The notes under the pieces are model-generated. The model ran no database searches and was not told the DNA's origin. It was given only the letters and a program-made list of their open reading frames with translations. Positions 2,500-3,917 of a stretch of 6,146 bases of DNA are shown piece after piece (position 1 is the first letter of the stretch; every line of letters begins with the position of its first letter). The translations under genes and the position numbers were made by a program. The stretch is taken from IMG/VR virus record IMGVR_UViG_2706794681_000014; one strand, given 5' to 3'. Origin of the DNA: a virus. Lineage: Duplodnaviria > Heunggongvirae > Uroviricota > Caudoviricetes.

Positions 2500-3744
2500 T
2501 CATCCGTTCTGGCTGACTAAATCCTGTACTTCCCGAACCGTCTGCTCAAAACGTTCAGTCTCCAGCTCAACGCCAATTGCACGACGCCCGAGCGCCAGTG
2601 CCGCTTTCACTGTCGAACCCAACCCCATGAAAAAATCTGCAATCAGGTCACCCGGACGACTGCTAGCGCTGATTATCTGCTGCAGCATTTCTGCCGGTTT
2701 TTCGCACGGATGTTTCCCGGGATAGAACTGCACCGGTTTATGCGTCCACACATCGGTATACGGCACCTGCACCGTCACGCCAAAATACCGCCGCAGATGT
2801 TTATATTCACTCAGCAGCTCCGCATACTGCCGGTTCAGTGAGGTATACGTATCCACCAGCTGGTGGTGGAGCTTTTCCAGTTCACCACGCCGATGCTTCT
2901 CTTCTGCCACCCGGGCAAACAGCGCCTGTAATTTCAGATAATCGCTTTCATTCGGCAACTGCCACTGACCGGCACTGAACCAGTGCGACACCATGTTTTT
3001 CTTTCCTGTGGCATCTGCAATCTGTTTTGCCGTTATCCCCAGGGCAGCTCGCGCATCACGAAAGTAAGAAATCAGCGGGGCCATCACATGCTGTTTCAGT
3101 GCACTGCCCTTCGCCGCATACCCGGCATCTTTCGGACGATACGGCCCCTGATAATGTTCCGCGAACAGAATGCGCTCTGTGGCGGGGAAATACGCCCGCA
3201 GGCTTTCCTTGTTGCATCCGTTCCAGCGTCCGGACGGCTTCGCCCAGATAATATGGTTCAGCACACTGAAGCGTTCACGCATCATGATTTCGATATCAGA
3301 TGCCAGGCGATGACCACAGAACAGGTAAAGACTTCCGGCAGGTTTCAGCANNNNNNNNNNNNNNNNNNNNNNNNNNNNNNNNNNNNNNNNNNNNNNNNNN
3401 NNNNNNNNNNNNNNNNNNNNNNNNNNNNNNNNNNNNNNNNNNNNNNNNNNNNNNNNNNNNNNNNNNNNNNNNNNNNNNNNNNNNNNNNNNNNNNNNNNNN
3501 NNNNNNNNNNNNNNNNNNNNNNNNNNNNNNNNNNNNNNNNNNNNNNNNNNNNNNNNNNNNNNNNNNNNNNNNNNNNNNNNNNNNNNNNNNNNNNNNNNNT
3601 TCTGCTTTTGCGCAAAGCAGTGGGCCTGAGGTTTGCTTGTGAACCCAACGCATGAGCAGATGGCTGGTGGGTGCCCCTAACACCCACCAGCCGCCCATTT
3701 ACCACAAATAAAAAAGCCTTCACTGCGGAAGGCGTCTGTAACAA
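2500..3744 (-). CDS. DNA methyltransferase, beta-class N6-adenine/N4-cytosine (PF01555-like); no adjacent restriction enzyme visible
   Basis: The C-terminal 283 aa are unmasked and carry HPCEKP (HPTQKP-like) followed by DLIADFFMGLGST (AdoMet-binding motif I, DPFxGSGTT-like), plus LKPAGSLYLF typical of the segment after the DPPY motif. The expected DPPY catalytic motif lies in the masked block 3351-3599. Stop TGA at 2500-2502. The 5' boundary is unreliable: the ORF-track start is TTG at 3744, and the true start is probably in or near the mask. Confidence 0.8.
   Translation of the reverse strand: MLQTPSAVKAFLFVVNGRLVGVRGTHQPSAHALGSQANLRPTALRKSRXXXXXXXXXXXXXXXXXXXXXXXXXXXXXXXXXXXXXXXXXXXXXXXXXXXXXXXXXXXXXXXXXXXXXXXXXXXXXXXXXXXXLKPAGSLYLFCGHRLASDIEIMMRERFSVLNHIIWAKPSGRWNGCNKESLRAYFPATERILFAEHYQGPYRPKDAGYAAKGSALKQHVMAPLISYFRDARAALGITAKQIADATGKKNMVSHWFSAGQWQLPNESDYLKLQALFARVAEEKHRRGELEKLHHQLVDTYTSLNRQYAELLSEYKHLRRYFGVTVQVPYTDVWTHKPVQFYPGKHPCEKPAEMLQQIISASSRPGDLIADFFMGLGSTVKAALALGRRAIGVELETERFEQTVREVQDLVSQNG
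3662..3692. repeat. perfect inverted repeat carrying the Chi octamer (GCTGGTGG) in both orientations
   Basis: GCTGGTGGGTG (3663-3673), 7-nt loop CCCCTAA, CACCCACCAGC (3681-3691); extendable by one G-C pair (3662/3692). GCTGGTGG is present on the plus strand at 3663-3670 and on the minus strand at 3684-3691. Confidence 0.6.
3706..3733 (-). terminator. possible intrinsic terminator after the small wHTH ORF (minus strand)
   Basis: Stem GCCTTC / GAAGGC (3716-3721 and 3728-3733) with a 6-nt loop, followed on the minus strand by TTTTTTATTT. It overlaps the ORF's TGA stop. The stem is short (6 bp), so this is tentative. Confidence 0.35.
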
Positions 3745-3917
3745 CCGAACTGATAGTCTGCCAGACCCGCCATAACCAGCTGGGTCAGTATTAACTGGCA
3801 GCGTTCGCGTGAAAGGTAAGTATTCTGCGCTATCTCCCCGACTGTCGCCGGTTCGGTAACGCTTAATTCATTAAACACCACTCTGGCGGTTTCTGTCATA
3901 TCCTGCTGTTTTAGCAT
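3720..3917 (-). CDS. small hypothetical protein, winged-helix/HTH-like (65 aa)
   Basis: ATG at 3915-3917 preceded by AGGAAAAG with AGGA 6 nt upstream; stop TGA at 3720-3722. The sequence ...ATVGEIAQNTYLSRERCQLILTQLVMAGL... resembles a DNA-binding helix-turn-helix/winged-helix segment. It is the first ORF downstream of the pR'/tR' module. Confidence 0.5.
   Translation of the reverse strand: MLKQQDMTETARVVFNELSVTEPATVGEIAQNTYLSRERCQLILTQLVMAGLADYQFGCYRRLPQ

What the first reader, a model, noticed from the sequence alone, without database searches (positions are those of the whole stretch)
2500..3917. Orphan beta-class DNA methyltransferase preceded by a small wHTH-like ORF in the Q-dependent late transcript
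The methyltransferase (motifs HPCEKP and DFFMGLGST seen) has no room for a cognate restriction endonuclease: tRNAs follow directly. It is therefore likely an orphan phage methylase for anti-restriction or epigenetic control, expressed from pR'. The 65-aa HTH-like ORF immediately upstream is arranged like a controller (C) protein of R-M systems, but without an endonuclease. Target specificity is unknown and the catalytic DPPY region is masked.
Basis: partly seen in the sequence, partly recalled or inferred. Interest (0 to 1): 0.45.

Follow-up and report, generated by a model that had tools for sequence, protein, structure and literature searches.

The report
Phage non-specific adenine methylase with leader
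The gene is a close relative of M.EcoGII, a known phage enzyme that methylates every adenine in DNA, so the enzyme itself is ordinary; what looks new is a conserved folded RNA just upstream of it, usually preceded by a small winged-helix gene, that probably keeps this toxic enzyme in check.

Summary
On the minus strand, a 65-aa ORF (3720-3917) lies upstream of a PF01555 beta-class DNA methyltransferase (visible 2500-3350), and three tRNA genes follow directly. No endonuclease is present. A lambda-like late promoter and two terminators lie between Q and the methyltransferase.

The visible 282 residues are at least 92% identical to M.EcoGII and 96% to its O104:H4 twin. M.EcoGII is the characterised non-specific N6-adenine methyltransferase of lambdoid prophages, silent in lysogens and harmful when expressed.

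One thing is new. The ~150-nt spacer is more conserved than either flanking gene from Escherichia to Plesiomonas. It matches no Rfam family, is non-coding, and shows covariation for two mutually exclusive pairings, one of which covers the bases just before the start codon. It always precedes this methyltransferase, sometimes without the small ORF.

Caveats for this copy:
- The N-terminus, including DPPY, is masked.
- The mask is 11 nt longer than the same stretch in every relative.
- Motif I carries a unique Ser-to-Leu change.
- The flanks match an IS-bounded Shigella sonnei prophage remnant.

The parts
4443..5273 (-). Visible part of the antiterminator Q gene (277 codons). The stop codon lies under the mask 4162-4442.
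   Evidence: Pfam PF03589 Antiterm at 183.6 bits. The stretch is 100% identical to the 284-aa Q of Shigella sonnei loci.
4097..4136 (-). pR'-like late promoter: TTGATT (4131-4136), a 16-nt spacer, TAAATT (4109-4114), then AACGATGGG (from 4102), which resembles the pause-inducing element of lambda pR'.
   Evidence: Read from the sequence. The resemblance to lambda pR' rests on my own knowledge. The consensus scan did not list it because it scores 8 of 12. The segment is conserved next to Q in relatives at 97-98%.
4036..4061 (-). tR'-like intrinsic terminator (AACCCGCCGCCGAGCGGGTT followed by TTTTTAT). It would end a short transcript of about 67 nt from pR'.
   Evidence: Terminator scan. The role is analogous to the pR'-tR' short RNA StxS (PMC7547250).
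3720..3917 (-). 65-aa winged-helix ORF (PHROG 331, function unknown).
3706..3733 (-). Second terminator-like hairpin plus U-run, overlapping the small ORF's stop codon.
   Evidence: Terminator scan. An equivalent hairpin with compensatory changes precedes the leader in most lineages, including those without the small ORF.
3600..3710 (-). Visible 5' three-quarters of the conserved methyltransferase leader RNA:
- segment 1, AUGGGC: 3693-3698
- hairpin P2: 3662-3692
- segment 2: 3651-3659
- segment 3: 3630-3643
- P4/P5: 3603-3626

The 3' end (segment 4, next to the start codon) is under the mask.
   Evidence: The covariance model R1 hits 3606-3710 at 64.7 bits, E 1.5e-12. No Rfam family matches.
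3351..3599 (-). Masked stretch that should hold the leader's last ~30-40 nt, the methyltransferase start codon and residues 1-70 with motif IV (DPPY).
   Evidence: Inferred from alignment to relatives. It is 249 nt here against 238 nt in all relatives.
2500..3350 (-). Residues 71-352 plus the stop codon of an M.EcoGI/GII-family beta-class N6-adenine DNA methyltransferase. It includes the helical target-recognition region, HPCEKP, and motif I written DFFMGLGST.
   Evidence: PF01555 at 105 bits. Identity is 95.7% to the O104:H4 protein, 94% to the Stx2a-phage protein and at least 91.7% to the published M.EcoGII sequence. Leu at position 313 is unique among about 240 relatives.
2212..2459 (-). 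Three tRNA genes: CAT (annotated ileZ/tRNA-Ile in relatives), Arg-TCG and Arg-TCT.
   Evidence: ARAGORN, Rfam tRNA hits and annotations of relatives.

Best explanation
This is the DNA-hypermethylation (anti-restriction) module of a lambdoid prophage late operon. It has three parts, in order: a small winged-helix ORF, a structured ~145-nt mRNA leader, and an orphan beta-class N6-adenine methyltransferase of the M.EcoGI/M.EcoGII clade.

Shown here:
- Family membership of the enzyme.
- Its fixed position after Q, a pR'-like promoter and two terminator-like hairpins, and before the ileZ-argN-argO-type tRNA genes.
- Absence of any endonuclease.
- The winged-helix fold of the small ORF.
- A non-coding leader that is conserved, covaries, and always accompanies this methyltransferase.

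Inferred from the characterised homologue (PMC5778455) and from lambda and Stx-phage biology:
- The gene is silent in the lysogen, because pR' transcripts stop at tR' and the second terminator.
- After induction, Q-modified RNA polymerase reads through.
- Because such an enzyme harms the cell, its synthesis is limited further at the RNA level.

Proposed RNA mechanism (inferred). The leader can pair segment 1 with segment 2 and segment 3 with segment 4. That buries the 14 nt before an AUG that has no properly spaced Shine-Dalgarno sequence. Alternatively it can pair segment 2 with segment 3. The trigger that shifts this balance is unknown. Candidates are the co-encoded winged-helix protein, acting like Mu Com on mom mRNA, or folding kinetics behind the fast Q-modified polymerase.

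This particular copy sits in an IS-bounded prophage remnant and may be decaying.
For: Enzyme:
- PF01555 at 105 bits.
- 95.7% identity to the O104:H4 protein over 278 aligned residues and 94.0% to a Stx2a-phage protein over all 282.
- At least 91.7% identity to the M.EcoGII sequence printed in PMC11551740, which was machine-read with errors.
- Phage 1720a-02, named in PMC5778455 as carrying a very similar enzyme, matches the window DNA at 94%.
- Relatives carry VTDPPYF.

Context:
- The order Q, 65-aa ORF, methyltransferase, tRNAs (then stx2AB in Stx phages) is seen.
- The module is present in 1274 of 5426 complete E. coli genomes.
- Two minus-strand terminators.
- M.EcoGII is not expressed in the lysogen and is deleterious when expressed.

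Module linkage:
- 32 of 34 species-level loci keep the small ORF, a 134-153 nt spacer (142-153 nt in 29 of the 30 with an intact small ORF) and the methyltransferase.
- This holds whichever Q family lies upstream.

Leader:
- Nucleotide identity of 69-84% exceeds both flanking genes.
- No frame is open in all copies and there is no 3-nt periodicity.
- Folding z-scores are -3.3 to -4.9.
- On an unfitted MAFFT alignment, 90% of cells pair against 26-44% for slid controls. Eleven pairs show double changes, and 0 of 500 shuffles reach the observed covariation score.
- The alternative helix has a pair seen as C-G 17, A-U 12, U-A 12, G-U 4.
- One column covaries with both of its alternative partners.
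- The covariance model finds the leader in every methyltransferase locus at 103-164 bits and in none of the methyltransferase-less loci.
- 79 of 80 viral pattern hits have the methyltransferase start 74-75 nt downstream, with a few partial or truncated matches off by 5 to 260 nt.
- The two conformers are near-isoenergetic, with a mean difference of 2.3 kcal/mol.

Precedent: Mu com-mom (PMC6483171), and com-like genes preceding non-specific adenine methyltransferases in Mu-like prophages (PMC3299994).
Against: - Residues 1-70, including DPPY, and the leader's 3' end are masked here, so integrity is unverified.
- The mask is 11 nt longer, not a multiple of 3, than the same stretch in all relatives.
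- The closest protein (99%, Shigella boydii) has an aberrant N-terminus.
- Motif I has Leu where all ~240 relatives have Ser, which may impair SAM binding.
- The window's flanks are 100% identical to an IS-bounded Shigella sonnei remnant with no lysis or structural genes. In this genome the module may never be used.
- No experiment shows that phage particles carrying this gene are hypermethylated.

For the leader:
- Much of the covariation comes from a few clades.
- One slid control (-3) for the alternative helix scores nearly as high (0.154 against 0.169).
- The modelled 'on' state still leaves 7.6 of 14 nt before the AUG paired.
- Several phages have the leader and methyltransferase without the winged-helix ORF.
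Confidence: 0.72

Rival explanations
1. Com-like activator. The winged-helix protein binds the leader RNA and shifts it from the conformer that sequesters the ribosome-binding site to the open one. The methyltransferase would then be translated only when the small protein has accumulated, as phage Mu Com does for mom.
For: - The small ORF, structured leader and harmful adenine-modifying enzyme sit in fixed order and spacing across Enterobacterales.
- The recognition helix RCQLILTQL is nearly invariant even at 40% overall identity, and the leader has invariant unpaired blocks.
- The small ORF has a strong Shine-Dalgarno sequence and the methyltransferase has none at working distance.
- Winged helices such as SelB and Z-alpha, which bind RNA, are among the fold matches.
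- Precedents are PMC6483171 and PMC3299994.
Against: - At least five phage contigs carry an unchanged leader and methyltransferase with no winged-helix homologue in up to 11 kb of held DNA.
- There is no sequence or fold relationship to the zinc-finger protein Com.
- No binding data exist.
- Co-occurrence may simply reflect inheritance as one mosaic block.
Confidence: 0.22
2. Controller-type transcription factor. The small protein binds DNA and regulates transcription of the methyltransferase, as C proteins do in restriction-modification systems.
For: - It has a winged-helix DNA-binding fold.
- It lies immediately upstream of a methyltransferase.
- The 12-bp perfect inverted repeat of P2 (3662-3692) could in principle serve as an operator.
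Against: - It is not an Xre-type HTH and has no PF01381 hit.
- There is no inverted repeat upstream of its own gene.
- No promoter-like site lies between it and the methyltransferase, and a terminator sits there instead.
- The P2 arms change sequence by compensatory pairs while the recognition helix stays invariant. That pattern fits an RNA stem, not a sequence-specific operator.
- There is no endonuclease whose timing would need control.
Confidence: 0.1
3. Relic. In this genome the module is a decaying remnant with no current function. The methyltransferase is inactive and the conservation seen elsewhere says nothing about this copy.
For: - The flanks are identical to an IS21/IS3/IS1-bounded Shigella sonnei remnant.
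- S313L at a position invariant in ~240 relatives is absent from 241 million metagenome records.
- The mask is 11 nt longer than in relatives.
- The closest protein has an altered N-terminus.
- Truncated copies exist elsewhere: a 45-aa methyltransferase in L040 and a 22-aa small ORF in L044.
Against: - The 282 visible codons are uninterrupted and the small ORF is an intact common allele.
- The visible leader is the standard E. coli type.
- The Leu change lies at an 'x' position of FxGxG and may be tolerated.
Confidence: 0.4
4. The spacer is conserved as DNA, for example as a recombination linker between phage modules or as a protein-binding site, and not as an RNA structure.
For: - Lambdoid phages are mosaic, and this window is itself a mosaic.
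- Many leader columns are invariant, which says nothing about pairing.
- GATC is invariant just before the start codon.
Against: - Compensatory double changes occur in five helices, and pairing far exceeds the slid and shuffled controls.
- The element never occurs away from this methyltransferase and always sits at a fixed distance from its AUG.
- Module breakpoints fall outside it.
Confidence: 0.1

Closest known systems
M.EcoGII and M.EcoGI of E. coli O104:H4 C227-11 (non-specific N6-adenine DNA/RNA methyltransferases; PMC5778455, PMC7544214, PMC11551740)
   Same: - Same clade: 92-96% identity over the 282 visible residues.
- Same length class (349-352 aa).
- Same beta-class motif order in relatives, and the same helical target-recognition region.
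- Same prophage position after Q.
   Different: - The N-terminal 70 residues cannot be seen here.
- There is a unique S313L change in motif I.
- The C-terminal tail is ...DLVSQNG (the 352-aa type) rather than ...DLIV.
- Activity of this allele is untested.
- The papers I could read do not describe the leader RNA or the upstream small ORF.
Phage Mu com-mom operon (PMC6483171)
   Same: - A small (62-65 aa) upstream gene.
- An mRNA structure that occludes the start of a late, host-harmful, adenine-modifying anti-restriction enzyme.
- Multilayer control, both transcriptional and translational.
   Different: - No homology of any part.
- Com is a CCCC zinc finger, whereas this protein is a winged helix.
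- Mom is not a methyltransferase.
- com overlaps mom, whereas here the genes are 150 nt apart with a terminator-like hairpin between them.
- The activator role is unproven here, and the small ORF is dispensable in some phages.
com-like gene plus non-specific alpha-class adenine methyltransferases of Mu-like prophages FluMu, Pnm1 and Hia (PMC3299994)
   Same: - A promiscuous adenine methyltransferase in a prophage late position.
- It is preceded by a small regulator gene.
- It is undetectable under laboratory growth.
   Different: - Those enzymes are alpha-class (FxGxG first), whereas this one is beta-class.
- The phage type differs (Mu-like against lambdoid).
- The small gene is different.
Controller (C) proteins of type II restriction-modification systems
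   Same: A small nucleic-acid-binding protein encoded immediately upstream of a modification gene.
   Different: - C proteins are Xre-type HTH dimers that bind C-boxes in their own promoter and time endonuclease expression.
- Here the fold is winged helix, and there is no C-box-like repeat, no promoter and no endonuclease.
Lambda and Stx-phage late control: Q, pR', tR' and the short terminated transcript (StxS; PMC7547250)
   Same: Q gene, a pR'-like promoter with an AACGAT element, an intrinsic terminator about 60 nt downstream, then late cargo (tRNAs, and stx in relatives).
   Different: - The predicted short RNA here is about 67 nt, not the 258-nt StxS, and its sequence was not compared.
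- A second terminator-like hairpin follows the small ORF.

Membership tests
Beta-class N6/N4 amino DNA methyltransferases (Pfam PF01555) | Significant match to the family profile | tested here: met
   105 bits against a cut-off of 26.7, covering profile positions 43-219 of 221. Solved relatives (M.RsrI, CcrM and others) match at E 1e-25 to 1e-14 using the full-length O104:H4 homologue.
Beta-class N6/N4 amino DNA methyltransferases (Pfam PF01555) | Motif order: catalytic DPPY (IV) first, then the target-recognition region, then FxGxG (I) | tested here: inconclusive
   Motif I and the preceding HPCEKP are at the C-terminus. DPPY lies under the mask in the window. It is present as VTDPPYF in 110 of 120 cluster representatives, the rest being fragments.
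Beta-class N6/N4 amino DNA methyltransferases (Pfam PF01555) | Intact SAM-binding motif I (FxGxG, family form DFFMGSGST) | tested here: inconclusive
   The F, G and G positions are present, but the second x is Leu. All 117 representatives and 126 locus copies that carry the motif have Ser. The effect is unknown.
M.EcoGI/M.EcoGII clade of non-specific adenine methyltransferases | High sequence identity to the characterised enzyme across the core and the target-recognition region | tested here: met
   At least 91.7% to the published M.EcoGII sequence, with no gaps across residues 160-237 (the target-recognition region defined in PMC11551740). 95.7% to the O104:H4 copy.
M.EcoGI/M.EcoGII clade of non-specific adenine methyltransferases | Methylation of adenine in any sequence context | not testable with these tools
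   This needs expression of this allele followed by LC-MS or SMRT analysis. It is known only for M.EcoGII itself (PMC5778455).
M.EcoGI/M.EcoGII clade of non-specific adenine methyltransferases | Lambdoid-prophage location, orphan (no endonuclease) | tested here: met
R-M controller (C) proteins | Xre-type helix-turn-helix domain (PF01381-like) | tested here: not met
   Pfam gives only a sub-threshold TrmB hit at 18 bits against 25.6. The fold is a winged helix with a beta-hairpin wing.
R-M controller (C) proteins | C-box inverted repeats in its own promoter, and a co-regulated endonuclease | tested here: not met
   No inverted repeat in 3900-4045. No promoter-like site. No endonuclease ORF.
Winged-helix DNA/RNA-binding domains | H1-S1-H2-H3-S2-wing-S3 fold | tested here: met
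Phage Mu Com translational activators | CCCC zinc finger, and binding to the mRNA of the downstream modification gene | tested here: not met
   Four-cysteine motif: tested and absent. Only C40 and C59 are conserved, and the fold is a winged helix. RNA binding: not testable here. The similarity is functional at most.
Any described RNA family (Rfam 15) | Match of the leader to a curated covariance model | tested here: not met
   No hit at gathering scores in the window or in three relatives. At E up to 1 there are only two chance-level antisense hits.

The most novel reading that the evidence does not exclude
The ~145-nt leader is a previously undescribed class of cis-regulatory RNA switch. It gates translation of a toxic, non-specific adenine methyltransferase, and the co-encoded winged-helix protein is its trans-acting effector. 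That would be a lambdoid-phage system convergent with Mu Com/mom, built from unrelated parts. A weaker variant is that the switch responds to something else: a metabolite such as SAM or SAH, or the speed of Q-modified polymerase.
Probability: 0.25. Interest if true: 0.65.

Novelty: new variant of a known kind. Interest (0 to 1): 0.45.

Why it matters
M.EcoGII is now a standard reagent for chromatin and RNA footprinting (Fiber-seq-type methods, MadID and engineered variants). Yet how phages keep such a harmful enzyme silent and then deploy it has not been described in the literature I could search.

This module sits in about a quarter of complete E. coli genomes, and in Stx2 phages it lies directly upstream of the toxin genes on the same late transcript. 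A conserved structured leader with two covarying, mutually exclusive folds, plus a conserved winged-helix partner, gives a concrete and cheaply testable hypothesis for that control. It also adds a candidate new RNA family.

For this window alone the matter is minor. The enzyme is already known, and this copy may be a decaying relic.

Tried and rejected
- **Source sequence.** I looked for the unmasked source through several routes:
  - Complete E. coli genomes reach at most 97%.
  - Exact-protein look-ups of the 65-aa ORF, the 117-aa ORF, RusA and P0199 gave only relatives, or Shigella sonnei loci without the module, or nothing.
  - An exact 30-mer carrying the Leu codon has 0 hits in metagenomes.
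  - A lineage-specific 32-mer gave 13 loci, all at 97.5% or below and all with the 238-nt spacing.
- **Coding potential.** A 33-codon ORF starts at the invariant AUG of the leader in E. coli-type copies. I rejected it because it shrinks to 4-18 codons in other genera and no frame is open in all copies.
- **Known RNA families.** None matches.
- **First AlphaFold run.** The closely related alignment gave pLDDT 69 and Foldseek E-values of 0.24 or worse. A more diverse alignment replaced it.
- **RNAalifold on the first alignment.** It proposed UGUGA:UCACA closing domain 1. Those columns are almost invariant, so the pairing cannot be judged.
- **Promoter for the small ORF or the methyltransferase.** None was found.
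- **Defence-system membership.** PADLOC gives only generic methyltransferase models and nothing for the small ORF.
- **Literature on the Q-to-stx region.** PMC6266700 and PMC4587872 do not discuss this methyltransferase, the small ORF or the leader.
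Full report
**What is in the window.** All relevant genes are on the minus strand. In the direction of transcription the order is:

- an 85-aa ORF (5644-5901)
- RusA (5270-5644)
- an antiterminator Q of Pfam family PF03589 (from 5273, running into the mask 4162-4442)
- a 65-aa ORF (3720-3917)
- a PF01555 DNA methyltransferase, visible from 3350 down to its stop at 2500
- three tRNA genes (2212-2459)
- two more masks (1685-1942 and 2003-2213)
- a 117-aa ORF, a DUF3927 ORF, and IraM on the other strand

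The 414-aa ORF starting at TTG 3744 comes from reading through the N-run. In every relative the methyltransferase starts 150 nt after the small ORF's stop. So the true start, and residues 1-70 with the catalytic DPPY, lie under the mask 3351-3599.

**What the methyltransferase is.** The DNA matches the Q-to-stx segment of many Stx2 phages at about 94%. There the order is Q, a 65-aa hypothetical protein, 'DNA methylase', three tRNAs, then stx2AB. It also matches phage 1720a-02.

The paper describing M.EcoGII names phage 1720a-02 as carrying a very similar enzyme. It places M.EcoGII and its twin M.EcoGI (333 of 349 residues identical) on prophages of E. coli O104:H4 (PMC5778455). An O104:H4 chromosome has the same locus.

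| Comparison | Identity to the window's 282 visible residues |
|---|---|
| O104:H4 349-aa protein | 95.7% (278 residues aligned) |
| Stx2a-phage 352-aa protein | 94.0% |
| M.EcoGII as printed in the supplement of PMC11551740 (machine-read, with a few obvious errors) | at least 91.7% |

Relatives carry VTDPPYF at residues 33-39. This is therefore a member of the M.EcoGI/GII clade.

According to those papers the characterised member:
- methylates adenine in any context, in double- and single-stranded DNA and in RNA
- is not expressed in the lysogen
- is deleterious when expressed constitutively

No solved structure of the clade exists; the nearest are M.RsrI-like enzymes.

**Orphan status and late-operon position.** The gap to the first tRNA is 40 nt. 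The upstream neighbour is a 65-aa protein, and neither strand has an endonuclease-sized ORF. The arrangement recurs in 1274 of 5426 complete E. coli genomes, with up to 15 places per genome.

Below Q the sequence reads TTGATT, 16 nt, TAAATT, then CGTTATAACGATGGG (4136 down to about 4092). From my own knowledge this resembles lambda pR' with its AACGAT pause element. The consensus scan does not list it because it scores 8 of 12.

Two terminator-like sites on the minus strand follow:
- 4061-4042 with a T-run, in the tR' position
- 3733-3716 with a T-run, overlapping the small ORF's stop codon

No promoter-like site lies between Q and the methyltransferase. Expression by Q-modified polymerase reading through from pR', as established for stx in these phages (PMC7547250), is the natural inference. 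It has not been shown here.

**The small ORF.**
- It is PHROG 331, 'unknown function', with no NCBIfam model.
- Its only Pfam hit is a sub-threshold TrmB match.
- The family is narrow: 85 clusters at 50% identity among 1.84 billion representatives. All are from Enterobacterales.
- With a diverse alignment, AlphaFold gives pLDDT 93.5 and a canonical winged helix.

'wHTH-like' is therefore right. It is not a controller protein in the R-M sense:
- The fold is the wrong HTH class.
- There is no inverted repeat upstream.
- There is no promoter, and no endonuclease.

**A three-part module.** In 32 of 34 species-level loci, from Escherichia through Klebsiella, Enterobacter, Proteus and Providencia to Plesiomonas, the small ORF is followed by an M.EcoGII-like gene. 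The spacer is 134-153 nt (142-153 nt in 29 of the 30 loci with an intact small ORF). This holds even where the proteins have fallen to 41% and 59% identity.

The module stays intact whichever Q family lies upstream (PF03589, PF06323 or PF06530). It also stays intact when other cargo sits between Q and the small ORF.

**The spacer is a conserved structured RNA.**

*Conservation.* Its nucleotide identity between E. coli and five other genera (69-84%) exceeds that of both flanking genes in every comparison.

*Not coding.* No frame is open in all copies, and variability has no 3-nt periodicity.

*Not a known family.* No Rfam family matches.

*Folding.* Single sequences fold with z-scores of -3.3 to -4.9.

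*Covariation for the main structure.* I used a MAFFT alignment of 51 non-redundant leaders, which is not fitted to any structure. The tested structure was P1 (AUGGGC:GCUCAU), the long hairpin P2, P4/P5, P6 (GGUCA:UGAUC, ending 4 nt before the AUG) and P7 (AAGC:GCUU).
- 90% of cells pair, against 26-44% when partners are slid.
- Eleven pairs show changes on both sides.
- 0 of 500 shuffles reach the observed covariation score.

*Covariation for the alternative helix.* P3 pairs the 3' strand of P1 with the 5' strands of P6/P7, so it excludes them. It contains one pair seen as C-G 17, A-U 12, U-A 12, G-U 4 and another as U-A 43, C-G 7. One column covaries with both of its alternative partners.

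*Check on a second alignment.* On an alignment fitted to the first structure, and so not biased towards P3, P3 keeps a covariation score of 0.169 against 0.058 for shuffles. One slid control reaches 0.154.

*Energetics.* The two conformers are close in energy. The first is the minimum-energy fold in 31 of 51 leaders, and forcing P3 costs 2.3 kcal/mol on average.

*Ribosome-binding site.* The methyltransferase has no Shine-Dalgarno sequence at working distance, and about 10 of the 14 nt before the AUG are paired in the minimum-energy fold. The modelled alternative frees only about three of them. RBS release is therefore a hypothesis and has not been demonstrated.

**The leader belongs to the methyltransferase.**
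- A pattern from its invariant core found 80 viral contigs. In 79 the methyltransferase begins 74-75 nt downstream (a few partial or truncated matches are off by 5 to 260 nt); the remaining one is a chance match.
- The covariance model scores every methyltransferase locus at 103-164 bits. It scores no methyltransferase-less locus, including the Shigella sonnei loci identical to the window's flanks.
- The window's visible portion scores 64.7 bits, E 1.5e-12, at 3606-3710.
- In at least five phage contigs the leader and methyltransferase are present with an upstream terminator-like hairpin but without any winged-helix homologue in the DNA held.

The small ORF is therefore a frequent partner, not an obligatory one.

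**Mechanism.**

The best-supported account is this. The gene is silent in the lysogen behind two terminators. It is transcribed late by Q-antiterminated polymerase, and its translation is damped or gated by the leader. The enzyme then hypermethylates adenines on replicating phage DNA, so packaged genomes escape restriction in new hosts. The family function comes from PMC5778455. The timing comes from lambda and Stx biology. The RNA gating is my inference from the covariation.

The closest functional precedent is phage Mu. The 62-aa Com protein binds mom mRNA and melts a translation-inhibiting structure (PMC6483171). In Mu-like prophages of Haemophilus and Neisseria, a com-like gene precedes non-specific adenine methyltransferases instead of mom (PMC3299994). 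The lambdoid module looks like an independent solution built from unrelated parts. Whether the winged-helix protein plays the Com role is open; I put it at about 0.2-0.25.

**State of this particular copy.**
- The flanks 6146-4443 and 1684-1 are 100% identical to Shigella sonnei chromosomes. There Q is followed directly by pR', tR' and tRNAs, with no small ORF or methyltransferase, and the remnant is bounded by IS21 and IS3/IS1 elements.
- The inserted module is at most 97.5% identical to any DNA I could find.
- The closest protein is a 343-aa Shigella boydii entry at 99%. Its N-terminus reads MESLPADCLEF... in place of MLNTVKISSCELINADCLEF....
- The window alone has Leu at residue 313 inside motif I. 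All 117 cluster representatives and 126 locus copies have Ser, and the exact Leu-codon 30-mer is absent from the metagenome collection.
- The mask over the 5' end is 11 nt longer than the same stretch in every relative.

If the mask preserves length, the extra bases fall either in about 30 nt of leader or in the first 70 codons. Only the latter would break the frame. I cannot decide this. I rate the chance that this allele is impaired at about 0.4.

**Verdict.** The enzyme is already known. What is new is the regulatory architecture around it: a conserved, covarying, Rfam-absent leader with alternative folds, and a dedicated winged-helix partner.

Noticed in passing
window 847-1036 (-): Full-length match to the Rfam sRNA family STnc100 (RF02076) at 132 bits, between the DUF3927 ORF and IraM. 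The same hit occurs in the O104:H4 locus.
   Followed up: no
window 4126-4161 and 4443-4471, flanking the mask 4162-4442: The 3' end of Q (CGGAAAAATCAACC..TAGTTACCTTTTTTA) is present on both sides of the mask. Relatives have 11 nt where the window has 321 nt. This could be a duplication of the Q end and pR' region, or an insertion hidden by the mask.
   Followed up: partly
window 1685-2213 (two masks with a 60-nt visible island at 1943-2002): Relatives such as the O104:H4 locus have 52 nt here against 529 nt in the window. The island is 100% identical to part of a 92-aa ORF of unknown function found after the methyltransferase and tRNAs in other loci (L004 type).
   Followed up: partly
window 1-1684 and 4443-6146; loci L172-L181: Both flanks are 100% identical to Shigella sonnei chromosomes (for example HE616528). 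That prophage remnant lacks the small ORF and methyltransferase and is bounded by IS21 and IS3/IS1 elements. The window is therefore a mosaic of that backbone plus a module of a different lineage.
   Followed up: yes
loci L004, L009, L011, L016 (between Q and the small ORF): The stretch just after Q is a cargo hotspot. Depending on the locus it holds a TfpB-like gene, an AAA_15 ATPase pair, a C5-methyltransferase with GmrSD and HEPN genes, or a Ser/Thr kinase with a PP2C phosphatase.
   Followed up: no
window 4036-4102 (-): The predicted short transcript of about 67 nt from the pR'-like promoter to the tR'-like terminator is analogous in origin to the regulatory sRNA StxS of Stx phages (PMC7547250). 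I did not compare the sequences.
   Followed up: no
alignment A4 columns 145-149; under the mask in the window: UGAUC, which contains a GATC Dam site, is nearly invariant 4-8 nt before the methyltransferase start codon in all leaders. A GGUCAC/GAUCAC box lies about 70 nt upstream. Whether Dam methylation plays a role, as it does at the Mu mom promoter, is unknown.
   Followed up: no
loci L040 and L044: There are signs of decay elsewhere. In a Providencia locus the methyltransferase is cut to 45 codons. In Mangrovibacter yixingensis the small ORF has a premature stop at codon 23. The leader stays intact in both.
   Followed up: no
window 1269-1622 (-): This 117-aa ORF belongs to PHROG 2873 (unknown function). 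In other genomes it follows Q directly, with no methyltransferase or tRNAs between.
   Followed up: partly
locus L018: A contig labelled 'MAG: Bacillus sp.', and another (L028) labelled Chryseobacterium, carry this enterobacterial module at 79-98% identity. This is most likely contamination or mis-binning.
   Followed up: no
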